64,000 nucleotides of DNA from an uncultured Planctomycetia bacterium (GCA_964437495.1 CAYTGV010000011.1:3964-67963), one strand, 5' to 3'. Shown: positions 572 to 36,803, counted from the first letter of the stretch. The notes: generated by a model from the sequence alone, not told the origin. A program made the numbers and translations.

Positions 572-611
572 TAAAATTCCCTTTTTGGGTTCGAATCTTT
601 TTTTGTTAAAA

Positions 612-694
612 TGGGCGAGAAGGGATTCGAACCCTTACGACCGTTAAGCCAATGGATTTTAAGTCCATCGTGTATGCCATTCCACCACTCGCCC
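612..694 (-). tRNA. tRNA-Leu (anticodon UAA), with long variable arm
   Basis: The reverse complement reads GGGCGAGTGGTGGAATGGC...GGACTTAAAATCC...GGTTCGAATCCCTTCTCGCCCA. It has a 7-bp acceptor stem, a T-arm GGTTCGAATCC, an anticodon loop CTTAAAA and a long variable arm. CCA is not encoded. Confidence 0.85.
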
Positions 695-747
695 AAATTA
701 TCAAAATTTTATTATACCACAAAGCACCAGATCATTACTTAACTTTT

Positions 748-822
748 TTGGAGGCGGCGAGCGGATTCGAACCGCTGAATAGAGGTTTTGCAGACCTCTG
801 CCTTCCCACTTGGCTACGCCGC
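748..822 (-). tRNA. tRNA-Cys (anticodon GCA)
   Basis: The reverse complement reads GGCGGCGTAGCCAAGTGGGAAGGCAGAGGTCTGCAAAACCTC...GCGGTTCGAATCCGCTCGCCGCCTCCA. The anticodon loop is CTGCAAA, the discriminator is U, and CCA is encoded. Confidence 0.85.
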
Positions 823-914
823 CAAAACTTTATTAAAAATCAAGCACTTAAGAAGAAACAATTCCTAAGTGCTCAATTTAATGTAAAATTCAATTTAAAA
901 ATTCAAAGCTACTA

Positions 915-6062: not shown

Positions 6063-7055
6063 TTAATTGAAATTTTCCAATCTTTTCATAATCCCTTTTT
6101 CTTTTTCAATTATCATTCCCCTTCTAAAACTACTACTTGCCGCTGATTCCTTAATTTTTAATATCCGCCCAGAGTCTTTTACACTCATTCCTATTTTTTT
6201 CACTGCTAAATAAATAAAAACACTGCGAGCCTCTCTAACCTCCTTGGTCTTCATTTCTATCAAAGCTTCTTGCTCAACTTTATATATCTTGCTGATTTTG
6301 CGAAGCAATTCATTCGAATCCTTAAATTCTTTCGGCTCTAGTTCTTCTTGCTTACATCGTTCTAATATATCCGCTGCAAAATCCCCACTGCCTAAAATCC
6401 TTTCATCGCTAACTTGCAGATCTTCCTTGCGTATTTTCAATGCTTCTCCCCATCCTCCCACGCTTCGAATTAATCCACCGCCAAGTAAATGTTTATCTTC
6501 ATTACCTAAGCCTTCTTGTAAATATTCCTCATATGCTTTTAGCGCTGTTGATTTTTTTCTGCCGAAATATTCTAATACCTCTTTGCTATTGATCGCACTC
6601 TCTTCCTGCCTAGCCATAATTTCTCTATGCCCTGTCCACGCATATTCTTTTAGTTTTGATAAAGTAATAATATTAGCTTTCACAGGATTTAAATGTATAT
6701 ACCTGACCAGGGGTAAATAATATTCATCAGCTTCTATGACTATTGATTTATATCTATTTTGAAACAGGTATCCACTGCGCTTATTTCGTTTATTATAATT
6801 TATCGCATATCCGGTGAGTAATTTCCGCATAAAAACAGAAAGACTGGTCTGGCCAGTTTGGTAAAGCAAATGAAAATGATTATCCATAATACACCAAGCA
6901 TGGATTTGCAACCTTGATTCTTTTTGGATATCTTTCAGGCGAGATAAAAAATCCTGTTTATCTGTTTCTTTATGAAATATTTTCAGGCCTTCTATCCCCC
7001 GGCCCATTACATGATGATAACATCCCGGATAATCTAATCGTGCTTGTCTTGGCAT
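6063..7055 (-). CDS. IS200/IS605-like HUH transposase (RAYT/TnpA-like N-terminal domain) with a long C-terminal extension
   Basis: YHHVMGRGI and NHFHLLYQT (an HUH motif) with a downstream catalytic Tyr region (YIHLNPVKA). The 330-aa length suggests a fused C-terminal helix-turn-helix-type domain. Confidence 0.65.
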   Translation of the reverse strand: MPRQARLDYPGCYHHVMGRGIEGLKIFHKETDKQDFLSRLKDIQKESRLQIHAWCIMDNHFHLLYQTGQTSLSVFMRKLLTGYAINYNKRNKRSGYLFQNRYKSIVIEADEYYLPLVRYIHLNPVKANIITLSKLKEYAWTGHREIMARQEESAINSKEVLEYFGRKKSTALKAYEEYLQEGLGNEDKHLLGGGLIRSVGGWGEALKIRKEDLQVSDERILGSGDFAADILERCKQEELEPKEFKDSNELLRKISKIYKVEQEALIEMKTKEVREARSVFIYLAVKKIGMSVKDSGRILKIKESAASSSFRRGMIIEKEKGIMKRLENFN

Positions 7056-7094: not shown

Positions 7095-7230
7095 TCAATT
7101 AATCAAACAACGTCCCCTTCAGCTCCTTTTTAATCAAACAACGTCCCCTTCAGCTCCTTTTGGTATTGTGTCCCCTTATTTCACACCACTACTTCCTCAA
7201 TTAATCAAACAACCTCCCTTTTAGTCTTAC
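7095..7230. repeat. Tandem direct repeats (AATCAAACAACGTCCCCTTCAGCTCCTTTT, two full copies and one divergent) immediately upstream of the transposase start
   Basis: Direct reading: ...aattaatcaaacaacgtccccttcagctccttttt aatcaaacaacgtccccttcagctccttttgg ... aattaatcaaacaacctcccttttag. Confidence 0.7.
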
Positions 7231-7376
7231 TTTTTAAAAGTCCTTTTGCCCTCTGGCCTTCAACAAACAAATGAAAACATAGCTAAAAACCACAACAAAA
7301 AAAATACTGTTAAGACACGCAAAAACAGGAATGCCTTTTTCTCCAAAAATACTTGCCAAGTTAATGAAATAAAAAA

Positions 7377-7640
7377 TTATAATAAAAAAACAGTTCCCAA
7401 AGCATTTTTTAGCTTTGCATTTACTTTATTGGTTTTCAATAAAACTAATAAAAATACATACAAACTAAATTCGACACCTCTTTTAAAAATCAGAATTTCA
7501 AAGTTAACATCTGTGGGTAAAAATATTTCACCGACAATATATTTCATGGAAATAAGCATTATACATAATGGGATTATAACCTGCACCAACCTTATTACAA
7601 ACAAAAACTTAACAATAGTCACTACACGTTTAACAATCAT
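7377..7640 (-). CDS. Small membrane protein; candidate immunity protein for the orphan RHS toxin tip
   Basis: An 87-aa hydrophobic protein with the RBS AAGGAGAG upstream, lying directly downstream of the orphan RHS C-terminal module. Confidence 0.4.
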   Translation of the reverse strand: MIVKRVVTIVKFLFVIRLVQVIIPLCIMLISMKYIVGEIFLPTDVNFEILIFKRGVEFSLYVFLLVLLKTNKVNAKLKNALGTVFLL

Positions 7641-7715
7641 GTTCTCTCCTTGGCTCTATTTCATTTAAAATCAATTACAAATCGATTACTACTCAATTTC
7701 CTGTTCTACTAATGG

Positions 7716-8459
7716 TTAAAATGCCACTGCTGCACCTAGGCAATGTTTGGCTACTTTTGCTTTTGGTTGACAATAATTCATACATCTGTCTCTCCACATT
7801 TGAAATTGAGTAAAATAATTCTCATTATACTGTCCATTCTTATTACATTTACGTGGCTCAGGTATTTCATGACAACATGAATTCCAAGCAGAAACAGCTT
7901 TAAAACATTTGTAAATAGCAAAACCAGATATTGCTAATCCCGCATAAACAATTAGGCCAACCCCTGAAATTTCTCCTTTAGGGTCACTTTTATTAACCGG
8001 ATTCCCCTCGACATACCCATAAAGATTAATCCCCCCAGCTACACCAATCGGATCCCGACTAATAAACCTCCCAACATCCGCATCATACCACCTAGCCCTA
8101 TAGTAATACAGGTTTGTATCACTATCTAACCAGCGCCCGGTGAACAGTATCTCATTTTCCAAAGAGCCTGTGCTGCTTTTTATTTTACCATAGACATCAT
8201 ATCCATACGTAGCTATTTTATTCCTAAAGCCGTCCGTTACCGCAACCACGCTTTGCAGGGCGTCCTGATGATAGTAATACGCTGATGAATAATCATCAAT
8301 AGCACATAATACCTCATCAATCTGCGGACCGTATATGATTTCCTTTATAAAGCCGTTTGACCCGTCATATTCAGCTATGCAATGGATACCATCGTAGATG
8401 TAGTATCGAGTATTGGGTATTGCGGATTGCGAGGCTAGATTCTTTTTAAAGCCCAGCAT
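7716..8459 (-). CDS. Orphan RHS C-terminal module (RHS core end DPxGL plus an alternative toxin tip)
   Basis: Residues 1-165 are nearly identical to the core region of the 9289..10584 ORF (YDGIHCIAEY...RARWY...DPIG...NLYGYV..NPVNKSDPKG), then the sequence diverges into a Cys-containing tip. Nucleotides 8163-8440 are near-identical to 9780-10057. Confidence 0.8.
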   Translation of the reverse strand: MLGFKKNLASQSAIPNTRYYIYDGIHCIAEYDGSNGFIKEIIYGPQIDEVLCAIDDYSSAYYYHQDALQSVVAVTDGFRNKIATYGYDVYGKIKSSTGSLENEILFTGRWLDSDTNLYYYRARWYDADVGRFISRDPIGVAGGINLYGYVEGNPVNKSDPKGEISGVGLIVYAGLAISGFAIYKCFKAVSAWNSCCHEIPEPRKCNKNGQYNENYFTQFQMWRDRCMNYCQPKAKVAKHCLGAAVAF

Positions 8460-8563
8460 GCCGTCTTCATAATAAGTGTATTCTATATTCTTGCCCAGGC
8501 TTGAGCCTGCTTTTATTAATCTGTTTTCAGAGTCCCAGGAATAATTCCAGGTGGTACCTTTTA

Positions 8564-8610
8564 AATTAAATAACCCAATTCTGACCCACGCGGTCAGAAT
8601 TGGGTTTTAT
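8564..8610 (-). terminator. Rho-independent terminator downstream of the 8698..9279 gene
   Basis: A perfect 13-bp stem cccaattctgacc/ggtcagaattggg, followed on the minus strand by a T-rich tract (tatttaattt). Confidence 0.6.
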
Positions 8611-8697
8611 GTAATCACTATGTGCTAGCCTTATTTTCTCTCTGTCAACTGTTTTCTGATTTTCTAGGCCTGACCACTTATTTCTCCCTAGTTTTCC

Positions 8698-9279
8698 CTA
8701 CTTTTCTTTATTTAAAGTCATTCCAGTGTTTTTTGACTGCTGTAAAGCAAAAATTATTTCTTTTTTTATTTTCGTACTAATATCCGTTTTAAGAAAAAAT
8801 TCTAGCAAATCAATCTCCTCTTTGTTTAGCAATCTTTTCTTAGCTGTTTTTAACGTCCTTATAATCAAGAACTCTCTGTTCTTATAGTCAGTTCTGGTAT
8901 TAACTGTGTTTTCATGCAATACCTTGTTTGCTTTATACGAAGCATAAATTTGAAAAACAGGCACAAGTAAACTAACAACTAAAACAAAAACAAACAATCT
9001 CATTCTTTCTTTTGCATCTGTTTCTCGCAAAAGTTTTTCAGACGGAAGCTTAATTATATTAAAATATGCTACTTCTACTCCACATAAAAATACCCCCCAA
9101 GAAAGAGCAATCCCATCAATTTTTTTAACATAAAAAAGCAATATGAACATACCCCAAACACACATTAAATGTATTAGTAACCGAAATTTTGTAATATTTT
9201 TGCTTTTCACAGTTTTATTAGAGATATAAAACGAATATATTAATAACAAAAATATCATTAAGAACATTACCTCCTCCAT
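8698..9279 (-). CDS. Membrane protein (about 4 TM plus a soluble tail); candidate immunity protein for the primary RHS toxin
   Basis: It starts 10 nt downstream of the RHS stop and has no recognisable domain. Its position is the classic one for an immunity gene. Confidence 0.45.
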   Translation of the reverse strand: MEEVMFLMIFLLLIYSFYISNKTVKSKNITKFRLLIHLMCVWGMFILLFYVKKIDGIALSWGVFLCGVEVAYFNIIKLPSEKLLRETDAKERMRLFVFVLVVSLLVPVFQIYASYKANKVLHENTVNTRTDYKNREFLIIRTLKTAKKRLLNKEEIDLLEFFLKTDISTKIKKEIIFALQQSKNTGMTLNKEK

Positions 9280-9288
9280 TTCTTAAAA

Positions 9289-10584
9289 TTAATCGCAACA
9301 ATTATCCAAAATAGGTTGACAACCTTCTAAAAGGCTTTGATACCACTCCAAATAAGATTTAATGCAAATCAACTCAGCTATAGCAAAAGAACTCGTGCAA
9401 GCTTTCCAGCAAATTTGACAGGAAATCTTATTAACACCACAAATTAAACCACAGGAAACACTGCAAACAAAATATTGTTTTGCCCCCCAAACTCCACAGT
9501 CATTAACTAAGCCCTTAGATAACTGTATCCCTGCTTGCGCTACGCAAATTTTATAACGCTTTAAGCATCCCGCTGTATACATCCCCTTTAGTCCTTTAGG
9601 GTCACTCTTATTAACCGGCCCGTTTCCCACATACCCATACAAATTAATCCCCCCATCGATACCTATCGGATCCCTTGAGATGAATCTGCCCGTACTGGGT
9701 TCGTACCACCTAGCCCTATAGTAATACAGCCCTGTATCTGAGTCTAACCATCTTCCCGTATACAGTATCTCATTTTCCAAAGAGCCTGTGTTGCTTTTTA
9801 TTTTACCATAGACATCATATCCATACGTAGCTATTTTATTCCTAAAGCCGTCCGTTACCGCAACCACGCTTTGCAGGGCGTCCTGATGATAGTAATACGC
9901 TGATGAATAATCATCAATAGCACATAATACCTCATCAATCTGCGGACCGTATATGATTTCCTTTATAAAGCCGTTTGACCCGTCATATTCAGCTATGCAA
10001 TGGATACCATCGTAGATGTAGTATCTAGTATCAGACGAAGATAGATTCTTTTTAAAGCCCAGCATGCCGTCTTCATAATAAGCATATGATATGTTTTTCC
10101 CCAAACTAGACGCCGCTTTTATTAATCTGTTTTCAGAGTCCCAGGAATAAGTCCAGGTGGTACCCCTTACAGAATTGCTAATCAGGTTTCCGTCTAAATC
10201 ATAATCATATACCGCGCTTGCCGTCGAATCCAATGTGATGTTCAGGCTTGTCTGCGTGATATTGCCGGCATAGTCAGCTGCCTCTAAAGTTATTTCATTT
10301 ACCCCAAAATCAAGCGCCAGGTCGTCTATAGTAAATGTATTGCCGCTGATGGTCGCTATATGATTATTCACAAAAACTGTATCAATATTAGCGTCATCCA
10401 ATATCCCTGAAAGAGATATAATATTGCCGCCTCCATAAATCGAGCTCTCTGAGCGATCCAGCTGATTTAACGTGTTAAACTGGGATGTGATAAATTCTGT
10501 ATTCAGGCTGAAATTAGTTCTATTTCCCAATCGATCAAAGGTATAAGCCTGAGTTGTCCCTTCAGGATAGCTGACATTTATCAG
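9289..10584 (-). CDS. RHS protein, C-terminal part (YD repeats, RHS core, Cys-rich toxin tip); in frame with 10585..13692 across a single TAG
   Basis: Reading the minus strand through TAG at 10585-10587 continues with LINVSYPEGTTQAYTFDRLGNRTNFSL (YD-repeat sequence). The track ORF starts at a TTG with no RBS. It contains the DPIGIDGGINLYGYVGNGPVNKSDPKGL core end and a roughly 95-aa Cys-rich tip. Confidence 0.75.
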   Translation of the reverse strand: MINVSYPEGTTQAYTFDRLGNRTNFSLNTEFITSQFNTLNQLDRSESSIYGGGNIISLSGILDDANIDTVFVNNHIATISGNTFTIDDLALDFGVNEITLEAADYAGNITQTSLNITLDSTASAVYDYDLDGNLISNSVRGTTWTYSWDSENRLIKAASSLGKNISYAYYEDGMLGFKKNLSSSDTRYYIYDGIHCIAEYDGSNGFIKEIIYGPQIDEVLCAIDDYSSAYYYHQDALQSVVAVTDGFRNKIATYGYDVYGKIKSNTGSLENEILYTGRWLDSDTGLYYYRARWYEPSTGRFISRDPIGIDGGINLYGYVGNGPVNKSDPKGLKGMYTAGCLKRYKICVAQAGIQLSKGLVNDCGVWGAKQYFVCSVSCGLICGVNKISCQICWKACTSSFAIAELICIKSYLEWYQSLLEGCQPILDNCCD

Positions 10585-13500
10585 CTAATTAATATTGTCA
10601 TAGCTATAGCTATGTATTCCCTGGCTATCAATTCTCTGCGTCCTGTTGCTATTTTTGTCATAGGCATAGTTAATCGTTGATACGCTGCCCGGTAAGCCCG
10701 GCTCTCCGGCAGCAATGCTTAGCAGCCTGTCAGCTTCATCATAAGTATAGGCAGTCTCTATATCATTCGGGTATTTCAAGCCAATCCGTCTGCCTTTATT
10801 ATCGTATGTGAAAGTAAATGCCTTAAGAGTTCCAGCTGTTTCAAAGGATATGTTGGATACCTGATTAAGATTGTTATAAGTATAATTAACCATTGTACCG
10901 GATGGATAGGTCATCTTTTTGCGATTGCCTAGAGCATCATATTCATACAAGACATGCAAATTACCAGGATAGCCAATATTAATAACCCTGCCTAAATCAT
11001 CATATACATATGTCCTTAGGCCCATAAGATCGGTTATTTGAGCAAGATTCCCTTGTTCATCATATTCGTATAAAATCTTTTGTTCGCCTGGCAAGGTTTT
11101 TTGAGTAAGCCTATTTAAGCCGTCATAACTGAAATTTGTATCCAGAGCACGAGAATTCGTCTTTTTAATTATATTACCGTTATTATCATATTCATAGAGC
11201 TCATACAAACCCATTGAATCAGTAGTTTTTATCAATCTGCTTTTGGAGTCATATTCAAACTGGGTTACATTAGCGTTGCCGTCAGTTATTGAAATACGGT
11301 TTCCAAGCACATCATATCTAAATATTGTCTGCGCCCCTAACACGTCGGCAATATTAATAAGCCTATTGTTTTTATCATATTGATAAGAAGTTGAATTAGC
11401 TTTAGGGTCTTTTACCTGTATTTTATTACCGCCTGCGTCATAACTTATCTCTATTTTTTCCGCTAGATGGTTAGATACCGCGGTTAATCTATTGGCCGCG
11501 TCATAGCTGTAATTTGTTTCATGGTTCAGCTTATCGATTTCTGTAATTATATTCCCGTTTGCATCGTAAACATATTCTATTGATTTACTATTCGCATCAG
11601 TCTCTAATATCTTTCTGCCTAGAGGATCATAGTCATATCTTGTAATATTGCCCAGCGCGTCGGTAATGCTTGATATATTATCACCGGAGCCGCATAGGAC
11701 ACAACCGGAAGTTGCGTCATAGGCATAAATAGTTTCATTCCCTAAGGGGTCTATAGTTTTTACCCTGCGGTTTCTCATGTCATATTCGTAATTCCATGTT
11801 CCATTAAGTTTATGTTCTGCAATAAGCCTGCCCATGGCATTATAATCATAGGTGATATCTATACCCTCAGGTAAATGTACTGCAATCCTACGGTTCATAG
11901 CGTCATAATCATAAGCGGTAATATTATTATTCGCGTCTTTATAGGAAATCATATTGCCATTTGCGTCATAGGTAAACTCTTCAGTATCTCCTGAGGAAAA
12001 TGTTTTAGAAAGCATCATCCCCAGTTTATTAAATTGATATGAAATAGTATTGCCAAGAGAATCAGTCTCACCTATAAGATTGCCAATACTGTCATAAGTA
12101 TACTGCCAGGTATTTCCCTGCGCGTCAGTTTTGGAAGCCATGGTTCCATTTTCATCATAACTAAAAGAACTGCTGTTTCCATTCGCGTCTGTTCTTGAGA
12201 CCATATTGCCAAACTGATCATAACTATAGCTAACCTTATTGCCAACAGGACAGGTTTCACTTTTTATCGAACCGCCCTCTATTTTCCTTGTCCAGGTATT
12301 GCCATTTTTGTCGATCTTAACTGACCATTTTGTATAATTCTCACCTTCAGCAGAAAGAATCCATTCTGTAGAATTACCCAATGGGTCAATTTCCTTCTGC
12401 AAACGGTTAAATTCATCATATACATAATTCCATTCATTACTATTTTCATCGATTACTTTAATCCGATTGCGATTGTCATCGTAAAAAAACTGCTTACTTT
12501 TCCCGTCAACGTATATCGCTTTATTTAACAACATTCTTGAATACTCATACACCGTGGTATTGCCGACTTTGTCAATATAAGTAGTCATTCCCAGGGTTTC
12601 ATCTGTGCTAAATCGCATAGTACCGCCTTCAGGATCAACCACTGACTCTACTCTAAGATTCCAATTCCATTCAGGGAAATGAATAGCAGATTCAAATGGC
12701 TTATTAAAATTATAAACAGTGGTATTGCCGCGTTTATCTGTAACATTAAAACTCTTCAGCAGCAAGTTCTCAGGTGTTTCTTCAAAAATAAAATCATAAT
12801 ACTGGCTATTGCCCACTGGATCTGTGACTTTATTTAAACTCGCCTGATAACCTTTATAAAGATTAAACTCAAGGTCATAATCATAACTTACAAATCTATT
12901 CGCGCTATCCTGTATTGATCCAATTAAGTAAATATTATCATGTCCGTTGTAGTATTCCTGCCAGTTGATTTGAATATATCTACCAGTTTCCGGCTCTATG
13001 ACTTTTACCGGTTTTTTTACTAATCCGCCTAATAAGTTGTCTTGAAATTCCCCGTATTCAAAATCTATCCTATTGCCATAACGGTCCACAATATATTGAA
13101 TATGATATATCCCCGTCTCAGCAGGCAAATCCGATGCTTCAAAAACATACTTTGAGCCAAATCTTAGCTGCCAAATAAAAGTACTGTCTACTTTGGTCAA
13201 ACCAGTAGTGCCACATTCAGGCCGGATATAAATATCACCAATCTTGATAAAATTGATCAGCTCCCCGTTTTCAGAAGTTAGCGTTGCTCCAACTTCTGTT
13301 TCTTCAAGACGCATTTCAACATTTGTCACCCAGCCTCTACCCAGGCTGCCTGATCGGCTTGATTGAGAAGAAAAAGATCTTTTGAAATTCAAGTATGTAA
13401 TGCCGGTCTTCTTGCCATTACCGCTTAATTCAAGATCGACTTCAGGAATAAATATTTTACCTCCTGTTATAGATACAGGATCTTGTATGTCAGAATTATC

Positions 13501-13692
13501 CTCCTCTTTATCATTATCCTCATCAGGAGGAGGCTTAAGCATTTCATCTCCATTTGGGCAAATCCCATTATCATCAGGACCATCAGCAGGTGTCTGACTG
13601 GCACAAATAGGTTCAATCAATAACAGATCGCCGGCAAAAAAAATAAAAGAAAATAACAAAATTAAAACAATAAAAAGTCTTCTTTTTCTCAT
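10585..13692 (-). CDS. RHS/YD-repeat protein, N-terminal part with signal peptide
   Basis: A 1035-aa protein with a signal peptide (MRKRRLFIVLILLFSFIFFAG) and dozens of YD repeats (xYxYDxxGNxxS). It ends at an in-frame TAG followed by more YD repeats. Confidence 0.85.
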   Translation of the reverse strand: MRKRRLFIVLILLFSFIFFAGDLLLIEPICASQTPADGPDDNGICPNGDEMLKPPPDEDNDKEEDNSDIQDPVSITGGKIFIPEVDLELSGNGKKTGITYLNFKRSFSSQSSRSGSLGRGWVTNVEMRLEETEVGATLTSENGELINFIKIGDIYIRPECGTTGLTKVDSTFIWQLRFGSKYVFEASDLPAETGIYHIQYIVDRYGNRIDFEYGEFQDNLLGGLVKKPVKVIEPETGRYIQINWQEYYNGHDNIYLIGSIQDSANRFVSYDYDLEFNLYKGYQASLNKVTDPVGNSQYYDFIFEETPENLLLKSFNVTDKRGNTTVYNFNKPFESAIHFPEWNWNLRVESVVDPEGGTMRFSTDETLGMTTYIDKVGNTTVYEYSRMLLNKAIYVDGKSKQFFYDDNRNRIKVIDENSNEWNYVYDEFNRLQKEIDPLGNSTEWILSAEGENYTKWSVKIDKNGNTWTRKIEGGSIKSETCPVGNKVSYSYDQFGNMVSRTDANGNSSSFSYDENGTMASKTDAQGNTWQYTYDSIGNLIGETDSLGNTISYQFNKLGMMLSKTFSSGDTEEFTYDANGNMISYKDANNNITAYDYDAMNRRIAVHLPEGIDITYDYNAMGRLIAEHKLNGTWNYEYDMRNRRVKTIDPLGNETIYAYDATSGCVLCGSGDNISSITDALGNITRYDYDPLGRKILETDANSKSIEYVYDANGNIITEIDKLNHETNYSYDAANRLTAVSNHLAEKIEISYDAGGNKIQVKDPKANSTSYQYDKNNRLINIADVLGAQTIFRYDVLGNRISITDGNANVTQFEYDSKSRLIKTTDSMGLYELYEYDNNGNIIKKTNSRALDTNFSYDGLNRLTQKTLPGEQKILYEYDEQGNLAQITDLMGLRTYVYDDLGRVINIGYPGNLHVLYEYDALGNRKKMTYPSGTMVNYTYNNLNQVSNISFETAGTLKAFTFTYDNKGRRIGLKYPNDIETAYTYDEADRLLSIAAGEPGLPGSVSTINYAYDKNSNRTQRIDSQGIHSYSYDNIN

Positions 13693-13693
13693 T

Positions 13694-14941
13694 TTATATT
13701 TTCCTTCCTTTTGAATCTAAAAGACTCGTCAATGTTTCTATGCTTTTTAACGCTATTTCCGCATCCACTTTAAATTTCGTCTCCGGATATCTGGATAACA
13801 AAGACTTATAAGTACTTATTGCTGATTGATAATCCGCTTGATCAACCTGCAGCCTGCCCAGATAAAACAATCCCTCTTCCCGCATTTCCTCCATACGCAT
13901 CACTTCTCTAAACTGCTTTTCCGCTTCTTTAAACATATCATAGTTTCGATAGATCTCACCAAGCTGAAGCTTTAACTCAGGCACCATTTCACCCTCAGCG
14001 ATCGCTTTTTTCGCGTAATTAATAGCCTGCATTTTATCTTTCTTTTTTCTTAGACACTGCAACGCTTTAACTTTATTTCCAACTTTAAGAAAATAATTAT
14101 GCGCTTTATCAAAGGCCCTTAGAGAAAAACACATATCACCCAGCGAATCATGATCATTTGCTTCTTTGAAATATTTAGCAGCCAATGCATAGTTTCCTTT
14201 TTTAAAATAAACCTTTCCTATCCCGCTTTTATTATTAGCTTGCTTGAAATATTTCAAAGCCAAATTATATTGTCCGCGGTTTAATGCCAATAAAGCCAGA
14301 CCGTCCACATCATTTTCTTCTTGAAAATATTTACGTGCTTTCTTAAATTGCCCCTCATTCAAAGCCACAAGTCCTAAACCGGAGTAATCCTTATTTCTAT
14401 TAAAATAATACTTGGCTTTCTGCCTATCTCCTTTATTGAAATAAGCCAGCCCTAATCCGGAGTAATCATTAGCCCTATCAAATATCTGAATTGCCTTGCG
14501 ATGCTGGCCCATTCCCATATAAGCATGTCCTGAAGCTGTGAATTCATTGCCATTTTTAAATTCTTCCAAAGCCTCCTTAAATCGATGCTGTGAGCATAAA
14601 ACTAATCCCACTCCAGCGTGATCATTTTCCTCTTTGAAATTTTTCAAAGCTTTCGCAAAGTCTCTTTTCTGAAGATAGACAAGCCCTAGGCCTTTTTTGT
14701 CTCCTATCTGCCTAAATCTTTCTTCAGCTTCACCATACATACGGCGCTTTAGAAAAAGCAGGCCTAAACCGCTTTTATTATTTGCTAAAGAAAATGCGTT
14801 TATTGCTTTATCATAATTACGCATTTTTAAATATCTATACCCCATGGCTGAATGCCCATGATCAAATGCCAGTAAAAATACTGTTGTGCCCAGTACTAAC
14901 ATCAAGGTTGACTTCCATAAAAATTCTTTGCGTACCTTCAT
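13694..14941 (-). CDS. Secreted protein with about ten 25-28 aa repeats (GLGLxxxxxxxxxAxxxFxxxND); TPR/Sel1-like
   Basis: An N-terminal hydrophobic segment and a repeated DYSGLGL...KA.KYF motif. It lies between the GT2 gene and the RHS gene on the same strand, with 1-nt spacing to the RHS gene. Confidence 0.5.
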   Translation of the reverse strand: MKVRKEFLWKSTLMLVLGTTVFLLAFDHGHSAMGYRYLKMRNYDKAINAFSLANNKSGLGLLFLKRRMYGEAEERFRQIGDKKGLGLVYLQKRDFAKALKNFKEENDHAGVGLVLCSQHRFKEALEEFKNGNEFTASGHAYMGMGQHRKAIQIFDRANDYSGLGLAYFNKGDRQKAKYYFNRNKDYSGLGLVALNEGQFKKARKYFQEENDVDGLALLALNRGQYNLALKYFKQANNKSGIGKVYFKKGNYALAAKYFKEANDHDSLGDMCFSLRAFDKAHNYFLKVGNKVKALQCLRKKKDKMQAINYAKKAIAEGEMVPELKLQLGEIYRNYDMFKEAEKQFREVMRMEEMREEGLFYLGRLQVDQADYQSAISTYKSLLSRYPETKFKVDAEIALKSIETLTSLLDSKGRKI

Positions 14942-14984: not shown

Positions 14985-16673
14985 TCATAGATTTCGTAAA
15001 ATCGTAATACCTATAAAAAACATGATTGCAACAGTTAAGGCAAAAGGCACTGGTACTAAAGCTTTAACTATCTTCTTATCCCCCCAGGATATAACTAAAA
15101 GTGTAAGTACAAAAGCAGTACCTAATGAAACAAGCCAAAGATTATATGTAGCCAAAGCGAAAATAATCAAAAATATACCAACAAACATTTCACTTAGAAG
15201 CCAATACAGATTATTCTCTTTCTCATTTATATTATTGGTAACAGGAAAGTAGGTCTTTCCGGTGATCACATAAAGCATGATTTCCTTAGCAGAATCAAGC
15301 AAAATAGATAAATGCAAAAAAGATGACATAGCTACATAACGCAGCATTCGGGCGCGTTTATTCCACATATCAATTATCGCGGGAATTAAAGGAAAAAATA
15401 TAACCAAAAACATTACTAAATAAAAATCAAACACCCAAAACACATTATATCTGGTTTTCAAAATGACCTGTGCCAAATTATCATAAAATAACGGCGGTAC
15501 AAGAAATAAAGGCCCTCGCACCTGAGAAGCCGTATAATAAAAAGGCATAATAAAACTTGCCACACAAACTAGCATCAAAAACGGAATTGCCTGCAGCAAG
15601 GCAAACGCGGAAATAAAGATATCCGCTTTTTCAAACCAGGGCACACATTTTGCCCTAAGAATTTGCGGATAGAACTCAGTTAAATACTGGTAAGTACCTC
15701 TAACCCATTTTCTATTACGTTTGCGGAATTTTTCAATGTTTTGAGGAAATTCCTCACCACAAACCGTATCTTCATCTATAATACCGTAATATCCTATTCT
15801 GCGAGCTTCAGATGAAAAAGCAAGGTCCTCTGTAACAACCTCGGGGATACCACCTAACGCCTCAATTACAGACCGCTTTAATACAGCTCCATGCCCGTAC
15901 CACATCACAAAACCAAATTTATTTTTTAATGACATATAATGGCGCCAATGGATATCAACCATTGACTTCATCGTCCGCCCAAAAGATCCTTTTTGATCTT
16001 CAATCGCAGCCTGAACAGCCTGAACAAAAGCTATTTTCGGGCTTAATTGAAACTTAGGAATAAGCTTAATGAGAAAATCAACCGGAAGTTCTGTATCGGA
16101 GTCATTAACCGCGATATACTCAAAACGTTTTTCAACTTTATTTAATGCGTCGTTTATATTCCCTGCTTTAAAACCACGCTGCTTATTTCTCCTTAATACA
16201 CTAATAATTGATCGATTATGCGCTTGGAATAAATCGATTTTTTCTTTAATTTCTTTATTATCACTGTCATCGCAAATAAACACATGAAAATCCTCGTATT
16301 TCTGTCCAATACAGGTCAAACACGCTTTTTCATTAAAATCATTCCTGGTCATATAAAGAATCGCAACCGCTGGTAAAGACGCACGAAAAGTTTTTTTGCT
16401 TTCTATTGGCGTATGCAAAAAATATGAAAAAAATATATGAACAGAATGATAAAGCCCGTACAGCCACATCATATTAATCCCTAAAACAAAGATCACAACT
16501 GAAGCTTTAGCAATGAGCGGCTCATCGCCTATAAGTAATGCCAAGAGAATAGGATTAAAGTATAAGGCAATTAAAAACCAGCAAAATAAGATAGACAGAA
16601 TTAATAAGTCATTCTTATCTATATCTCCGTTCTCCGTAAACCTAATTGTCTTTAATACACGTTTAATATTCAT
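14985..16673 (-). CDS. Membrane-bound family 2 glycosyltransferase (processive beta-glycan synthase-like)
   Basis: N- and C-terminal TM segments flank a cytoplasmic GT-A domain with DxD (NDSDTE), a TED motif and RKWVRG (QxxRW-like). Confidence 0.7.
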   Translation of the reverse strand: MNIKRVLKTIRFTENGDIDKNDLLILSILFCWFLIALYFNPILLALLIGDEPLIAKASVVIFVLGINMMWLYGLYHSVHIFFSYFLHTPIESKKTFRASLPAVAILYMTRNDFNEKACLTCIGQKYEDFHVFICDDSDNKEIKEKIDLFQAHNRSIISVLRRNKQRGFKAGNINDALNKVEKRFEYIAVNDSDTELPVDFLIKLIPKFQLSPKIAFVQAVQAAIEDQKGSFGRTMKSMVDIHWRHYMSLKNKFGFVMWYGHGAVLKRSVIEALGGIPEVVTEDLAFSSEARRIGYYGIIDEDTVCGEEFPQNIEKFRKRNRKWVRGTYQYLTEFYPQILRAKCVPWFEKADIFISAFALLQAIPFLMLVCVASFIMPFYYTASQVRGPLFLVPPLFYDNLAQVILKTRYNVFWVFDFYLVMFLVIFFPLIPAIIDMWNKRARMLRYVAMSSFLHLSILLDSAKEIMLYVITGKTYFPVTNNINEKENNLYWLLSEMFVGIFLIIFALATYNLWLVSLGTAFVLTLLVISWGDKKIVKALVPVPFALTVAIMFFIGITILRNL

Positions 16674-27237: not shown

Positions 27238-29298
27238 TTATCTGTTTTTTTCATTGCCTGATAAAACCAGCACCCTCATTACCTCTCTCAGCATCTCTTT
27301 TTCTTTATCCTTCATTCCTTTACGTTTATAAAATCCAGCCAGATTATAGTAGGCTTCCAGGTACTCGCCATTAAGTTCTATGGCTTTTAAATAACACTTA
27401 TTGGCATCATCAAATCTCTCGAGTTTTTCATAAACTACGCCAAGATGATTAAAGGCCGGAGAAAAGGAATCATCAATAGTCACTGCCTTTTGCAATATTT
27501 CAAGAGCCTCGACAAATTGTTTTTTTGCTATATAAGCTGCTCCCATATTTGTCATTGTCGCCACGTCTTCAGGGTCAATCTCCAGGGCTTTGCTATAATA
27601 TTGCATTGCTGCGTCAATTTTATTCCCTCTAGCAAGAGCAATCCCAATATTTGAATATGCCGCCGAATCATCCGGATCTATCTCGATCGTTTCCTGGAAT
27701 TTAGCAATTGCTTTATCATATTGCCTGCCCTCTAAATATAAAACCCCCTGATTATATACTGCATCCAGGTTGGCAGGATCCAGCTTCTGAGCGCTAATGA
27801 ATGATTTCAATGCCTTTTGCGTCTGCCCCTTATAGCTGAAGGCATTGCCCAGATTAAACAGCCAGCGTGATTTATTATCCTCATCGACATCAAATAATCT
27901 TGAGTTAACAAAAACAAACATCATAAATAAAAATATCAAAGACAAAGAAAATATCTTATAATTTTTGCGTTTTATTTTCCCAAACAACCAGACTATAGCA
28001 TATGAGGCAAATATGATAAAAATCGGGACAACCGCTATGCGATAGCGGCTGACTACAAAAAAAATGATCATGAGTAAAAACTGCGATAAAATAAACAGAT
28101 TAAGCAATATTACCGATTTATCTTTTTTAAAAGACACGGCTATCCCAAGCAGCGCCAAAGGACAGATGATCCCAAAGGGGAACGAAATAAATCCTCTGGA
28201 AAAAACAAGCATCTGAAGTAAAGGCGACCATATCTTAAAGAAATAAATACTCTGATTCTCTGGGATCTCATAAGCATTAAAAAAGTAATAGCATTTCCGC
28301 ACAAGCAGCTTAACCCATGTGAGGGGATTACTTACCACAAACTGAACAGCTCTAGAGGTCCAAAAATCAGAGACCTCAGACGGCTTCATTTTTCTGCCCT
28401 GAATCCTCTCAGCCACCTTGATCGAAGATACCCATACATTATCTTTCCATCCGCGATAGGAATAATCCCTTGATGGAGGTATCGCTGTCTTACCGTCAGC
28501 ATGTGCATTATTTCCTATATAAAGATTTATTCCCCCGGTTGAAGAAAGCAGCACAAAGTCCCCGCCTTGCATAACATTGCGCAAGGCAAAAGGGGTAAGA
28601 ATCAGCACTACGCCGATTGTAGTAATAACCAGGGTTAAGAATCTTCCATATTTAAAGATCTTAGATCCAATAGAGTGTTTTTTGTTGTAAATATATATCC
28701 AGATAAGCATTAAAGGAAAGAATAAAATAGCATTGGCACTTATCTGCAGAGCTAAACTAAAAATCACACCGCAGCCAAGCCATTTAGACATCTTAGGCTT
28801 ATCTATGGTATAAAGCAGTGCTAAAAGCAGTCCGATATTAAAAAATAAACTCAGACCTACATTCAGCAACTGTGCGTCAAAATAAATAAATACACCGTAT
28901 ACACTGCATATACACGCAGAAATTATCCCGACATTTCGGCTAAAAACCTTTTTCCCCAGACAATAGACTAAAATACAGTTAAAGGCACCAAGAAACATTT
29001 GAACAACTCTGGCAGCTGTAAATCCGCTGCCCAAAAATTTAAAAATAATTGCCAAAAAATATACATATAAAGGCACACGCGGGGTTACAACCCCCTTGAT
29101 CATCCAGTCTCCAGCTGCTATACGCTTAGCAAACAAATAGTGCGAAAGCGCGTCTATTACCGGGCTATCATAAAAAGGATTCTGCTTAAACTGATACAAA
29201 TATATAAGTCTAAGGAAAAAAGCCAGTAAAAAAATAGCCCCAATCCAGAGAATATCCTTAAATCTTTCATTGTTCTTAGTCTTATCTATTAAGTTCAT
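27238..29298 (-). CDS. GT39/ArnT-like membrane glycosyltransferase fused to C-terminal TPR repeats
   Basis: About 11 TM helices in the N-terminal 450 aa are followed by 5-6 TPR repeats (AxxYxxxGxAY pattern). Confidence 0.7.
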   Translation of the reverse strand: MNLIDKTKNNERFKDILWIGAIFLLAFFLRLIYLYQFKQNPFYDSPVIDALSHYLFAKRIAAGDWMIKGVVTPRVPLYVYFLAIIFKFLGSGFTAARVVQMFLGAFNCILVYCLGKKVFSRNVGIISACICSVYGVFIYFDAQLLNVGLSLFFNIGLLLALLYTIDKPKMSKWLGCGVIFSLALQISANAILFFPLMLIWIYIYNKKHSIGSKIFKYGRFLTLVITTIGVVLILTPFALRNVMQGGDFVLLSSTGGINLYIGNNAHADGKTAIPPSRDYSYRGWKDNVWVSSIKVAERIQGRKMKPSEVSDFWTSRAVQFVVSNPLTWVKLLVRKCYYFFNAYEIPENQSIYFFKIWSPLLQMLVFSRGFISFPFGIICPLALLGIAVSFKKDKSVILLNLFILSQFLLMIIFFVVSRYRIAVVPIFIIFASYAIVWLFGKIKRKNYKIFSLSLIFLFMMFVFVNSRLFDVDEDNKSRWLFNLGNAFSYKGQTQKALKSFISAQKLDPANLDAVYNQGVLYLEGRQYDKAIAKFQETIEIDPDDSAAYSNIGIALARGNKIDAAMQYYSKALEIDPEDVATMTNMGAAYIAKKQFVEALEILQKAVTIDDSFSPAFNHLGVVYEKLERFDDANKCYLKAIELNGEYLEAYYNLAGFYKRKGMKDKEKEMLREVMRVLVLSGNEKNR

Positions 29299-32284: not shown

Positions 32285-32410
32285 TAAATACCCCTTTTAT
32301 TTTTATTGAATTATTATATAATTTTAACACATAAATTCACTTCTTACAAACACAAACATACATGATTTGACATGCCTGCGCATAAATGTTAGACTAAGTA
32401 TTAATTAATT

Positions 32411-35550: not shown

Positions 35551-36803
35551 CGGTTGCCCCTTTCTATAATCTTTTTAAAAACAAGCTCTGCCTTCAAAGC
35601 CTGGGTATTGATTGTTTTAAGTAAATGCCGCTCATACATTGCCTCCGGCATATAAAATCCTTCGGCATTTTCTTTAAAAGAAACAACCTTATCAATAAAA
35701 AAATTACTCAGCACCGGCTCAATAAATTTGTCCTGAAAAAACTTTTTTTCAACAATCTGAGTCGGATCAAAATCCGCGTCAATATTATTTAATACCCTAA
35801 GGCAATCATCAAAGATTATCTCCTGGTCCTGTTCGTTTATACTATTAGCGCGCCGGTAGACAGGATAATATACAACATTCTCACCACTAAGCGCCGATGT
35901 ATCAATAATTACTCTGCTCATGGCGTCCCCTTGCTGATTAATAAATAACCAGTATCCAGGCCGAAGAGGTCTTCTAAGTTTTAAAACATAGCAGCCCACG
36001 TTTAAATAATCTGTTTGAGGTATATTCAGCTCATTCTTTAGCTCATCATCGCATAATTGCCCGATCTCTTTTAATGAGCTACAGCCAATAACACAATCAA
36101 ATTCCGCAAAAGATGTATTATCATACAACAACCATTTATTATCGGACTTATGTACGATTCTATTAATCGTCCTGCCTAACATTATCTTTGCACCTGTGCT
36201 GCGGATTCTATTAATCAAGGCCTTTACAATCGCCTCTATCCCGCCGTTTAAAACACCTATTTCATTGTGTTTTCCTTCATTTATCCTTGCCCAAAGATAA
36301 CTGGCGCTAACATCATCATAGTTTTGAAATTTAAATTTCAACATCCCCTTAAAATAACGCTCAAACACATTCTTTGTACAATTATCCTCGACCCAGGAAG
36401 ATGCGCTATGTTTATTAAACTGAACCCCTTGTTTTGCAATACTTGCCTTGGACAAAAAAACAGCCAATTTAATCTTCTCAATAATATTTACTCCCGGCAG
36501 AGAGAACAGGCTTAGAGGCCGGCTCATATCGAAAAACTGACCATTGATAATACTTGCCTGTTTTGCCTTTTTCCACTTAAGGCTATTTCCCAATCCTAGC
36601 TCATTAATAACCCTGATTATTTCTAAATCCCTTTTTGAAAAAAAGTGATTATATCTTTCGATCTGCACTTTATCTAAACTGGCAGAAGAACACAGTCCTC
36701 CCGCATAATCCTGCTTTTCAAAAACACTGACTTCAAACCTGGGTGAAAGCCTGTAAGCACACATCAATCCGCTTATGCCAGCGCCTATTATAGCGATCCT
36801 CAT
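35547..36803 (-). CDS. FAD-dependent oxidoreductase (amine oxidase/phytoene desaturase-like)
   Basis: The N-terminus MRIAIIGAGISGLMCAY is a GxGxxG dinucleotide-binding fold. Confidence 0.7.
   Translation of the reverse strand: MRIAIIGAGISGLMCAYRLSPRFEVSVFEKQDYAGGLCSSASLDKVQIERYNHFFSKRDLEIIRVINELGLGNSLKWKKAKQASIINGQFFDMSRPLSLFSLPGVNIIEKIKLAVFLSKASIAKQGVQFNKHSASSWVEDNCTKNVFERYFKGMLKFKFQNYDDVSASYLWARINEGKHNEIGVLNGGIEAIVKALINRIRSTGAKIMLGRTINRIVHKSDNKWLLYDNTSFAEFDCVIGCSSLKEIGQLCDDELKNELNIPQTDYLNVGCYVLKLRRPLRPGYWLFINQQGDAMSRVIIDTSALSGENVVYYPVYRRANSINEQDQEIIFDDCLRVLNNIDADFDPTQIVEKKFFQDKFIEPVLSNFFIDKVVSFKENAEGFYMPEAMYERHLLKTINTQALKAELVFKKIIERGNR

What the first reader, a model, noticed from the sequence alone, without database searches (positions are those of the whole stretch)
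7377..10180. Orphan RHS C-terminal module with a ~280-bp recombination tract and paired immunity candidates
The ORF 7716..8459 repeats the last ~165 aa of the RHS core almost exactly, and nucleotides 8163-8440 are near-identical to 9780-10057, with weaker homology out to ~8560/10180. It then encodes a different C-terminal tip. Each tip is followed by a small membrane protein (8698..9279 and 7377..7640). This is the polymorphic-toxin arrangement in which homologous recombination can swap the active toxin tip. Both tips lack a recognisable domain: tip 1 is Cys-rich (about 18 Cys in 95 aa) and tip 2 has a predicted TM segment.
Basis: partly seen in the sequence, partly recalled or inferred. Interest (0 to 1): 0.55.

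Follow-up and report, generated by a model that had tools for sequence, protein, structure and literature searches.

The report
RHS toxin locus with orphan module
This is a textbook bacterial "polymorphic toxin" locus: a big RHS toxin gene followed by a spare, start-less toxin tip, each tip paired with a small membrane immunity gene. Two things are unusual: the main gene carries a premature stop codon, and both tips belong to tiny, uncharacterised cysteine-rich families.

Summary
On the minus strand, a 585-bp piece of RHS core (7974-8558) repeats the 3' core of the main RHS gene (9592-10164). Identity is about 88% overall, and a central 264-bp tract (8144-8407) has one mismatch. Each copy ends in the Rhs core domain (TIGR03696; DPxG-x19-DPxG) and continues into an unrelated tip. 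Each tip is followed by a predicted membrane protein.

Both tip/immunity pairs recur together in other metagenomic contigs, and all four genes show dN/dS below 1. So even the 87-aa ORF 7377..7640 is a real gene. No tip or immunity protein matches Pfam, NCBIfam, PADLOC, PDB sequences or PDB folds.

- Tip 1 has 13 Cys, not 18. They are arranged mirror-symmetrically, which suggests a cysteine-laddered helical hairpin.
- The main RHS gene is interrupted by an in-frame TAG at 10585-10587, present in several independent assemblies. Delivery is therefore probably off at present.
- A strong terminator-like hairpin separates immunity gene 1 from the orphan.
- Immunity gene 1 lacks about 71 C-terminal residues relative to its only full-length homologue.

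Verdict: a new member of a well-known kind (Rhs main plus orphan CT/immunity). Modest interest.

The parts
10588..13692 (-). Main RHS gene, N-terminal 1035 codons. It has a Sec-type signal peptide, DUF6531 and 14 RHS/YD repeats.
   Evidence: Pfam RHS_repeat E 5e-92 with 14 stretches, DUF6531 E 3e-12. TIGR01643 E 1.5e-70. Hydrophobic N-terminus, KD 2.81. The start lies 1 nt after the stop of the upstream TPR gene.
10585..10587 (-). In-frame TAG that interrupts the RHS gene (NIN*LIN). It is one C-to-T change away from CAG (Gln).
   Evidence: The same 1035-aa product is called in NCBI, JGI, ENA and Logan assemblies. It is the only in-frame TAG between two long ORFs in the window. No suppressor tRNA is present in the window.
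9589..10584 (-). Main RHS gene, C-terminal core (332 codons). It contains an Ig-like insert (about 10228-10413), a last RHS repeat and the Rhs core domain ending in DPKGL.
   Evidence: TIGR03696 E 1.9e-26 at residues 256-332. Glucodextran_B-like E 5e-6, just below the Pfam cut-off. The motif DPIG-x19-DPKG can be read directly.
9592..10164 (-). Main-gene copy of the repeat shared with the orphan.
9289..9588 (-). Tip 1: 99 aa plus stop, 13 Cys, predicted all-helical, with a mirror-symmetric Cys pattern.
   Evidence: Only 2 homologues in 5.8 billion proteins. AF2 pLDDT 77 with 4-5 helices. No PDB fold or sequence match. Cys mirror pattern reached by 8 of 5000 random placements. dN/dS 0.15 versus L001.
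8698..9267 (-). Immunity candidate 1: 189 aa from the ATG at 9267 (an alternative ATG lies at 9279). It has 3-4 TM segments and a short soluble tail. It lacks about 71 C-terminal residues present in the L001 homologue.
   Evidence: A GGAGGAGG sequence lies upstream. TM segments. A homologue lies downstream of the tip 1 homologue in L001 (266 aa) and L002. DNA homology to L001 stops at window 8710. dN/dS 0.25.
8572..8606 (-). Terminator-like hairpin (15-bp stem, 7 G-C pairs, T-rich tail) between immunity gene 1 and the orphan.
   Evidence: Folding z-score -4.4.
7974..8558 (-). Orphan RHS core fragment: 195 codons, no start codon before the ATG at 8459, Rhs core domain ending in DPKG(E).
   Evidence: TIGR03696 E 1.1e-26. 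Alignment to the main gene.
8144..8407 (-). 264-bp tract with a single mismatch to 9762-10025. It is the likely recombination or gene-conversion substrate and footprint.
   Evidence: The only two differences between the window and the JGI and ENA assemblies (9853 and 9862, both synonymous) lie in the main copy of this tract. At both sites the window carries the orphan allele.
7716..7973 (-). Tip 2: 85 aa plus stop, an N-terminal TM helix followed by a 7-Cys helical domain.
   Evidence: TM segment. Homologues P0005, P0007 and P0011 all sit at RHS core ends with DPxGE/K. AF2 pLDDT 67.5. No PDB match. dN/dS 0.27.
7377..7640 (-). Immunity candidate 2: 87 aa, 2 TM segments.
   Evidence: An AAGGAGA sequence lies 6 nt upstream of the ATG. 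It is 51% identical to the ORF downstream of the tip 2 homologue in L018 and L028. dN/dS 0.55. The exact sequence is found in 6 contigs from JGI, ENA and Logan.

Best explanation
This is an Rhs/YD-repeat polymorphic toxin locus in the chromosome of an uncultured bacterium. The taxon is probably Omnitrophota or another PVC lineage, judging from the closest relative and from a DUF1559 pilin-like gene.

The locus reads, on the minus strand: TPR gene, RHS main gene ending in tip 1, immunity 1, terminator, orphan core fragment ending in tip 2, immunity 2.

Mechanism inferred by analogy with solved Rhs proteins:
- The Sec-exported RHS shell encloses its C-terminal tip.
- The DPxG-x19-DPxG aspartyl protease cuts the tip free after DPKGL.
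- The tip intoxicates neighbouring cells. The producer is protected by the membrane protein encoded just downstream.

The orphan has no start codon, signal peptide or shell, and it sits behind a terminator. It is therefore a silent spare. A RecA-type crossover anywhere in the 585-bp in-frame homology would delete 1606 or 1618 bp (tip 1 plus immunity 1) and fuse the shell to tip 2. The 264-bp near-perfect tract is the most likely site. The lack of synonymous differences in that tract shows that the two copies have already exchanged sequence.

Both tips are small, helical and cysteine-rich, and both are paired with integral membrane immunity proteins. I therefore infer that they act on the target cell's membrane, by pore formation or depolarisation, rather than as enzymes. 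Tip 1 would be a helical hairpin cross-braced by 6-7 Cys-Cys rungs. Tip 2 would be a TM helix plus a small Cys-stabilised helical head.

As sequenced, the main gene carries an in-frame TAG at codon 1036. Delivery is thus most likely switched off in this population unless the codon is read through or reverts. The immunity genes can still protect.

Shown: the anatomy, the homology, the synteny conservation and the purifying selection. Inferred: secretion, cleavage, toxicity, immunity, the membrane target and the disulfides.
For: - RHS repeats, DUF6531 and the Rhs core domain are present in both copies.
- The DPxG-x19-DPxG motif is present in both copies. It is the same motif as in Tse5, where both Asp residues are catalytic (PMC10684867).
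- The repeat and its mosaic identity are documented.
- The tips are unrelated to each other.
- Tip 1 and immunity 1 co-occur in L001 and L002. Tip 2 and immunity 2 co-occur in L018 and L028, and a possible distant pair is in L029.
- In those loci the modules are also orphans, preceded by stop codons or by a degenerate core.
- dN/dS is below 1 for all four genes.
- TM predictions are and the terminator.
- The arrangement is identical in the JGI contig L015. The ENA and Logan contigs L016 and L017 span the immunity 1/orphan junction.
- Cys mirror symmetry: the one Cys pair missing from the window tip is exactly a mirrored pair. The AF2 loop lies at the symmetry centre.
- Precedent for main/orphan recombination over 522 bp at 95% identity: PMC3967940.
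Against: - The main gene has a premature TAG in every assembly that covers it. The system may be a decaying relic.
- No recombinant (main core fused to tip 2) contig was found. Short-read assemblies simply break inside the perfect tract.
- The two SNPs that suggest gene conversion could instead come from assembler mixing of the two copies.
- The orphan ends in DPKGE rather than DPxGL, so cleavage of a chimera is unproven.
- Tip 1 has no segment hydrophobic enough to score as a TM helix (maximum KD 1.38).
- The AF2 models rest on only 3-4 sequences (pLDDT 77 and 67.5).
- No secretion machinery (T6SS or T7SS) is present in the 64-kb window. Export rests on a predicted signal peptide.
Confidence: 0.85

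Rival explanations
1. This is a defunct locus. The RHS gene is a pseudogene killed by the TAG, and the orphan is a leftover of an earlier C-terminal displacement. Only the immunity genes, if anything, are still useful, as protection against toxins fired by relatives. Nothing is swapped or delivered.
For: - The TAG at 10585-10587 is present in NCBI, JGI, ENA and Logan assemblies.
- Immunity gene 1 is C-terminally shorter than its L001 homologue.
- In L018 the orphan core carries an in-frame TGA, which shows that such fragments do decay.
Against: - Apart from the single TAG, both halves of the 1467-codon frame are intact, with no second stop or frameshift. The lesion is therefore recent or tolerated.
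- Tips and immunity genes are under purifying selection across loci.
- The near-perfect tract shows recent exchange between the copies.
- A single T-to-C reversion restores the gene.
Confidence: 0.35
2. The orphan is expressed on its own from the internal ATG at 8459. It would act inside the producer as a toxin-antitoxin-like pair together with the 87-aa protein, as reported for the Salmonella orphan Rhs element.
For: - An ORF of 247 aa starts at ATG 8459.
- The upstream terminator makes the orphan a separate transcription unit.
- A weak promoter-like match lies at 8497..8469.
- Precedent: PMC7043789 (listed; title and abstract only were read).
Against: - There is no Shine-Dalgarno sequence before ATG 8459. 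That Met is simply a conserved internal residue of the core.
- Promoter-like matches in the region are no more frequent than in shuffled sequence (15 found versus 14.2 expected).
- The homologous frame is open for 33 codons upstream of the ATG, which is typical of a truncated fragment.
Confidence: 0.1
3. The duplication is an assembly artefact. Two strain variants of one RHS 3' end would have been stitched in tandem.
For: Short-read assemblies break inside the identical tract. The window differs from two other assemblies at two sites within it.
Against: - The unique junction from immunity 1 through the 150-nt spacer into the orphan is spanned by the ENA contig L016, the Logan contig L017 and the JGI contig L015.
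- The orphan/tip 2/immunity 2/transposase junction is spanned by L025 and L026.
- The same orphan architecture occurs in unrelated loci.
Confidence: 0.02
4. The tips are not toxins. They would be cysteine-rich anchoring, adhesion or metal-binding modules displayed by the RHS protein, and the downstream membrane proteins would be partners or receptors rather than immunity factors.
For: - No toxin domain was detected.
- Dense CxxxC and CxxC spacing could bind metal.
- Tip 2 starts with a TM helix that could act as an anchor.
Against: - The position directly after the self-cleaving DPxG motif, the hypervariability, the orphan cassettes and the tight tip/partner co-variation are the signature of polymorphic toxin/immunity pairs (PMC3482391, listed; title and abstract only were read).
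- In L001 the next orphan tip in the array is PLA2-like, which is a toxin type, although the match is sub-threshold (Pfam E 0.019).
Confidence: 0.08

Closest known systems
Salmonella Typhimurium LT2 rhs-main / rhs-CT-orphan locus (STM0291/STM0292) and the E. coli and Dickeya orphan rhs-CT/rhsI modules
   Same: - A full-length rhs gene with its immunity gene is followed directly by a 5'-truncated core fragment carrying a different tip and its own immunity gene.
- Several hundred bp of core homology are shared: 522 bp at 95% in LT2 (PMC3967940), and 585 bp at 88% with a 264-bp tract at 99.6% here.
- A crossover gives an in-frame chimera and deletes the main tip and its immunity gene.
   Different: - This RHS has a Sec-type signal peptide, and no PAAR, VgrG or T6SS genes lie nearby.
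- The main gene is interrupted by a TAG.
- The identity is mosaic rather than uniform.
- The orphan ends in DPKGE rather than DPxGL.
- The host is an uncultured, probably Omnitrophota-like bacterium.
- Recombination has not been observed here, only inferred.
Tse5 (PA2684) of Pseudomonas aeruginosa, an Rhs protein whose C-terminal tip is a pore-forming, membrane-depolarising toxin
   Same: - An Rhs shell with a DPXG-X19-DPXG aspartyl protease plug (PMC10684867). The spacing is the same here.
- A small non-enzymatic helical tip that is proposed to insert into membranes.
   Different: - No sequence or fold similarity was detected.
- Tse5-CT is about 16 kDa and is not reported as Cys-rich. The tips here are 9-11 kDa with 7-13 Cys.
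- Tse5 is delivered by a T6SS.
- The membrane activity of the present tips is inference only.
WapA-type Sec-secreted YD/RHS toxins of Gram-positive bacteria (from my own knowledge; not tested here)
   Same: An RHS/YD-repeat toxin with an N-terminal signal peptide, a polymorphic C-terminal tip, a downstream immunity gene and no T6SS.
   Different: The WapA tips I know of are tRNases with cytoplasmic immunity proteins. Here the tips are Cys-rich helical peptides with membrane immunity proteins. The host is probably diderm.
Alpha-hairpinin / Cs-alpha/alpha peptides: helix-loop-helix antimicrobial peptides with a CX3C...CX3C motif and two disulfides (PMC7191063, listed; title and abstract only were read)
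   Same: Tip 1 has CX3CX3C on one arm and CX2CX3C on the other arm of a predicted helix-loop-helix. All of its Cys residues are mirror-paired about the loop.
   Different: - Tip 1 has 6-7 putative rungs over about 90 residues, compared with 2 over about 30-40 residues.
- It is bacterial and fused to an RHS shell.
- There is no sequence homology, and the disulfides are unproven.

Membership tests
Rhs/YD-repeat polymorphic toxin (main gene) | Multiple RHS/YD repeats that form the shell | tested here: met
   Pfam RHS_repeat E 5e-92 with 14 stretches. TIGR01643 E 1.5e-70.
Rhs/YD-repeat polymorphic toxin (main gene) | RHS repeat-associated core domain with the DPxG-x18/19-DPxG(L) aspartyl autoprotease motif at the core/tip border | tested here: met
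   TIGR03696 92.4 bits against a cut-off of 32.5. DPIG-x19-DPKGL can be read. The motif definition is from PMC10684867. The cleavage itself cannot be tested here.
Rhs/YD-repeat polymorphic toxin (main gene) | Variable C-terminal tip followed by a cognate immunity gene | tested here: met
   Tip 1 and the downstream membrane protein co-occur in three loci. Toxicity and immunity cannot be tested with these tools.
Rhs/YD-repeat polymorphic toxin (main gene) | An uninterrupted reading frame from the delivery domain to the tip | tested here: not met
   An in-frame TAG lies at 10585-10587. It is reproduced in several assemblies.
Rhs/YD-repeat polymorphic toxin (main gene) | A dedicated delivery route (PAAR/VgrG-T6SS, or a Sec signal peptide as in WapA) | tested here: inconclusive
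   No PAAR, VgrG or T6SS domains are present in the RHS or in the window. The N-terminus is hydrophobic and signal-peptide-like. No signal-peptide predictor was available.
Orphan rhs-CT/rhsI module | [quoted passage not shown] | tested here: met
   The homologous frame opens at 8558 with no start codon before 8459. It lies 140 nt after the immunity 1 stop codon and behind a terminator.
Orphan rhs-CT/rhsI module | Core homology to the main gene that is long and similar enough for homologous recombination, and in frame | tested here: met
   585 bp at about 88% identity, including a 234-bp perfect run. The only indel is 12 nt and in frame.
Orphan rhs-CT/rhsI module | A tip distinct from the main tip, with its own immunity gene | tested here: met
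   hhalign aligns only the core end. Tip 2 and the 87-aa ORF are conserved together in L018 and L028.
Orphan rhs-CT/rhsI module | Actual recombination between the main gene and the orphan | tested here: inconclusive
   There are no synonymous differences in 87 codons, against 16 synonymous changes in the next 56 codons. The window's main copy carries orphan alleles at 9853 and 9862 where the JGI and ENA assemblies do not. No deletion-junction contig was found.
Pore-forming Rhs tips (Tse5-CT-like) | Sequence or fold similarity to a characterised membrane-inserting tip | tested here: not met
Pore-forming Rhs tips (Tse5-CT-like) | Hydrophobic or amphipathic helices, and an integral-membrane immunity protein | tested here: inconclusive
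   Tip 2 has a TM helix (KD 1.98). Tip 1 has none above 1.6. Both immunity candidates are multi-TM. Membrane activity cannot be tested here.
Alpha-hairpinin-like Cys-braced helical hairpin (tip 1) | Helix-loop-helix with Cys residues mirrored across the loop (CX3C...CX3C) | tested here: met
   6 of 6 possible pairs are mirrored (7 of 7 in the homologues). Random placements reach this in 8 of 5000 trials for the window and 1-3 of 5000 for the homologues. AF2 places helices on both sides of a loop at the symmetry centre.
Alpha-hairpinin-like Cys-braced helical hairpin (tip 1) | Disulfide bonds between the mirrored Cys residues | not testable with these tools
   The only support is indirect. The window tip lacks exactly one mirrored pair (positions 26 and 79 of the tip) that both homologues have.

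The most novel reading that the evidence does not exclude
Tip 1, and perhaps tip 2, would represent a previously undescribed class of RHS cargo. It would not be an enzyme. It would be a roughly 100-residue helical hairpin stapled by 6-7 mirrored Cys-Cys rungs that attacks the target membrane and is neutralised by a dedicated 4-TM immunity protein. That would make it a bacterial, shell-delivered analogue of the disulfide-braced alpha-hairpinin antimicrobial peptides. It would be used by Sec-secreted RHS proteins in Omnitrophota-like bacteria that lack a T6SS.
Probability: 0.3. Interest if true: 0.5.

Novelty: new member of a known kind. Interest (0 to 1): 0.3.

Why it matters
The locus adds a clean example of the Rhs main/orphan cassette system in a poorly studied, uncultured lineage. 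It defines two very small toxin/immunity families with no known domain. Each has only two to four relatives in billions of proteins.

If the cysteine-ladder hairpin is a real membrane toxin, it broadens the known repertoire of RHS cargo beyond enzymes. It would also offer a compact, very stable antimicrobial scaffold.

The fixed nonsense codon shows how such loci can be silenced while immunity is retained. Otherwise the architecture and the proposed swapping mechanism are textbook.

Tried and rejected
- **Stop-codon reassignment or readthrough as a genome-wide feature.** Rejected. The RHS TAG is the only in-frame TAG between long ORFs in 64 kb, and another gene ends in TAG. No suppressor tRNA is present in the window.
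- **Assembly artefact.** Rejected on the evidence of independent contigs that span the unique junctions.
- **The two tips, or the two immunity proteins, being remote homologues of each other.** For the tips, hhalign aligns only the shared core end. The immunity proteins were not compared by profile, but they differ in size and topology.
- **Known domains.** Pfam, NCBIfam and PADLOC give nothing for the tips or the immunity proteins. PDB sequence searches give nothing. Foldseek against the PDB gives nothing with E below 1.
- **Close relatives in species-representative genomes.** Only distant RHS proteins were found, at 41% identity or less.
- **Phage origin.** No relatives of either tip were found in viral contigs.
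- **Which copy is ancestral (C-terminal displacement direction).** I compared core ends with L001, L002, L018 and L028. The identities do not discriminate between the copies.
- **A conserved cassette boundary upstream of the orphan.** There is no DNA similarity between the window and L028 upstream of the core fragment.
- **REP-like hairpins in the 31-nt repeats next to the Y1 transposase-like gene.** No stable structure was found.
- **Other copies of the core, tips or immunity genes, or a remnant of the missing immunity 1 C-terminus, elsewhere in the window.** None were found.
- **A distant immunity 2 homologue in L029.** The ORF has the same position, size and 2-TM layout and shares an EFSLY motif. 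BLASTP support is weak (E 0.035), so it is not counted as evidence.

Full report
**Anatomy**

All relevant genes are on the minus strand. A 1467-codon RHS reading frame runs from 13692 to 9289. Its start lies one base after the stop of an upstream TPR gene (13694..14941), and a family-2 glycosyltransferase gene (14985..16673) lies further upstream.

The N-terminal 1035 codons contain:
- a hydrophobic, signal-peptide-like N-terminus;
- DUF6531;
- 14 RHS/YD repeats (Pfam E 5e-92; TIGR01643 E 1.5e-70).

The C-terminal 431 codons contain an Ig-like insert, a last repeat and the RHS repeat-associated core domain (TIGR03696, 92 bits against a cut-off of 32.5). That domain ends in DPIG-x19-DPKGL. The same DPXG-X19-DPXG aspartyl-protease motif has two catalytic Asp residues in Tse5 that release the tip (PMC10684867).

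After DPKGL comes tip 1 (99 aa). Twenty-one bases after its stop codon comes a membrane protein of 189 aa (8698..9267; an alternative ATG lies at 9279).

**The repeat**

Orphan 7974-8558 aligns with main 9592-10164, with 67 substitutions and one in-frame 12-nt indel.

The identity is mosaic. A 234-bp perfect run (8174-8407) extends to 264 bp (8144-8407) with a single mismatch. It is flanked by segments of 78% and 89% identity. Inside the tract, 87 codons show no synonymous difference. The next 56 codons have 16 synonymous and 10 non-synonymous changed codons. With divergence spread evenly, such a run would have a probability of about 1e-10 (my arithmetic). The tract is therefore a footprint of recent exchange between the copies and not of protein-level constraint.

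The orphan frame is open and homologous from 8558, but it has no start codon before the conserved internal Met at 8459. It carries a complete core domain (TIGR03696, E 1.1e-26) ending in DPKGE. It continues into tip 2 (85 aa), which is unrelated to tip 1.

Between the immunity 1 stop and the orphan lies a 15-bp-stem, terminator-like hairpin (8572-8606; z = -4.4). The orphan is therefore a start-less fragment insulated from upstream transcription.

The tract is 8144-8407, not 8163-8440. Tip 1 has 13 Cys, not about 18. The core copy is 88% identical in protein over its last 102 residues, not near-exact throughout.

**Is it an assembly artefact?**

No. A JGI contig (L015) has the whole arrangement with only two base differences over 13.7 kb. 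An ENA contig (L016) and a Logan contig (L017) span the unique junction from immunity 1 into the orphan. L025 and L026 span the stretch from the orphan through tip 2 and immunity 2 to the transposase-like gene. Short-read assemblies break exactly inside the perfect tract, as expected for a true repeat.

The two differences between the window and L015/L016 (9853 and 9862) are synonymous third-position changes in the main copy. At both sites the window carries the orphan's allele. This fits gene conversion segregating in the population. It could also come from an assembler threading orphan k-mers into the main copy.

**Are the tips and small ORFs real, and what are they?**

Tip 1 has only two homologues among 5.8 billion proteins (84% and 72% identity). 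One is from a Candidatus Omnitrophica MAG (L001) and the other from an ENA contig (L002). In both, the next gene is a homologue of the window's immunity 1.

Tip 2 found nothing through the word index. An exhaustive phmmer search gave P0005 (61% identity), P0007 and P0011. All three sit directly after an RHS core end of the form DPxGE or DPxGK. A metagenome scan added L028.

In L018 and L028 the tip 2 homologue is followed by an ORF 51% identical to 7377..7640. That ORF also has an AAGGAGA Shine-Dalgarno sequence. The downstream ORF in L029 may be a more distant relative, but support is weak.

dN/dS values:

| Gene | dN/dS |
|---|---|
| Tip 1 | 0.15 |
| Immunity 1 | 0.25 |
| Tip 2 | 0.27 |
| Immunity 2 | 0.55 |

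In the related loci these modules are themselves orphans. They are preceded by stop codons or by a degenerate core. L001 carries an array with a second orphan tip that is PLA2-like at sub-threshold level.

**Structural inference for the tips**

The 13 Cys of tip 1 are mirror-symmetric about residue 53 of the tip. The pairs are 50/57, 46/60, 42/64, 31/75, 15/90 and 8/98. Both homologues have one further pair (26/79), and it is exactly this mirrored pair that the window tip lacks.

Random placement of the same number of Cys reaches this symmetry in 8 of 5000 trials for the window and in 1-3 of 5000 for the homologues. The AF2 model puts its central loop at the same position.

I read tip 1 as a long helical hairpin cross-braced by 6-7 Cys-Cys rungs. 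This resembles an enlarged alpha-hairpinin motif, but the disulfides are unproven.

Tip 2 is a TM helix (KD 1.98) followed by a small helical domain. Its invariant pattern is C..CC.EIP.P..C..Y..MW..RC.NYC..K.

Both immunity candidates are integral membrane proteins. On that basis I infer membrane-directed, non-enzymatic toxins. Tse5-CT is the closest functional analogue. This step is inference, with a confidence of about 0.4.

1. The RHS frame contains a TAG at 10585-10587 (NIN*LIN, one transition away from CAG). The resulting 1035-aa product is called identically in NCBI, JGI, ENA and Logan assemblies. It is the only such in-frame TAG in the window. Nothing suggests recoding. The stop lies upstream of the recombination tract, so neither tip 1 nor a recombinant tip 2 can be delivered unless the codon reverts or is read through. 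Everything else in the frame is intact, so the lesion looks recent.
2. Immunity 1 is about 71 residues shorter at its C-terminus than its L001 homologue. DNA homology ends at 8710, just before the spacer and the orphan. No remnant of the missing part is present in the window.
3. The locus sits in an ordinary chromosomal neighbourhood. Pyrimidine biosynthesis genes lie upstream. An MFS transporter, yicC, remA, gmk, rpoZ and coaBC lie downstream. No T6SS or T7SS genes are present in the 64-kb window.

**Mechanism and comparison**

The best-supported account is the classical Rhs polymorphic-toxin system with an orphan CT/immunity cassette. The Salmonella LT2 main/orphan pair recombines over 522 bp at 95% identity (PMC3967940). 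Here any crossover within the 585-bp in-frame homology would delete 1606 or 1618 bp and fuse the shell to tip 2.

Differences from the paradigm are:
- a predicted Sec signal instead of T6SS adaptors;
- mosaic identity;
- a DPKGE border on the orphan;
- the nonsense codon;
- two tiny uncharacterised Cys-rich tip families.

Membership of the Rhs family and of the orphan-module class is met on every sequence feature tested, except for an intact main reading frame.

**Verdict**

This is a new member of a known kind. Interest is modest (0.3). The cysteine-ladder tip and the silenced main gene are the only points beyond the textbook.

Noticed in passing
window 10585-10587 (minus strand): A single in-frame TAG splits the RHS gene into 1035 and 431 codons. 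It is present in NCBI, JGI, ENA and Logan assemblies. It sits at the base of a small 7-bp palindrome (10568-10587).
   Followed up: yes
window 7099-7160 and 7201-7231: A perfect tandem pair of a 31-nt unit (TTAATCAAACAACGTCCCCTTCAGCTCCTTT) plus a degenerate third copy. They lie between immunity gene 2 and a RAYT-like Y1 transposase gene with a DnaA-C HTH (6063..7055, below the NCBIfam cut-off). The core AGGGGACGTT also occurs in repeats that flank a tip 2-type orphan in the unrelated contig L020 (161-197 and 968-1004 direct; 1080-1100 inverted). No hairpin is predicted. This could be a cassette boundary or a binding site.
   Followed up: partly
L001 1-2785 (Candidatus Omnitrophica MAG GCA_022013205.1): An orphan array. 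It holds a tip 1-like fragment with only about 33 core residues, a 266-aa immunity homologue, a DUF2283 gene, a second orphan starting at DPEGL with a PLA2-like motif (Pfam Phospholip_A2_1 E 0.019, sub-threshold), and a TM ORF. A 198-nt direct repeat (55-252 and 1768-1965) corresponds to the two core remnants.
   Followed up: partly
window 8698-8710 versus L001 1147-1363: The window's immunity 1 protein ends about 71 residues before its L001 homologue, which continues with a weakly HEAT-like domain. DNA homology stops at 8710, next to the spacer that precedes the orphan. This may be a scar of the event that joined the two modules.
   Followed up: partly
window ~10228-10413 (minus strand): An Ig-like, Glucodextran_B-like segment (Pfam E 5e-6, 26.7 bits against a cut-off of 27) is inserted in the RHS shell shortly before the core domain.
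   Followed up: no
L018 1-120: The orphan core fragment that precedes the tip 2 homologue has an in-frame TGA where the core has a conserved Trp (GR*LDS). The same module in L028 is intact. This shows decay of untranslated orphan core sequence.
   Followed up: partly
window 29295-33829 and 36800-38200: A cluster of four radical SAM genes, three of them with a detected B12-binding domain, lies together with GT2, polysaccharide deacetylase and amine-oxidase genes. A PMT_2/TPR protein gene (27238..29298) lies next to it.
   Followed up: no
window 611-823 and 915-1373: tRNA-Leu(TAA) and tRNA-Cys(GCA) lie next to a prepilin-type N-methyl/DUF1559 protein gene. From my own knowledge, that family is typical of Planctomycetota/PVC genomes, which is consistent with an Omnitrophota-like host.
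   Followed up: no
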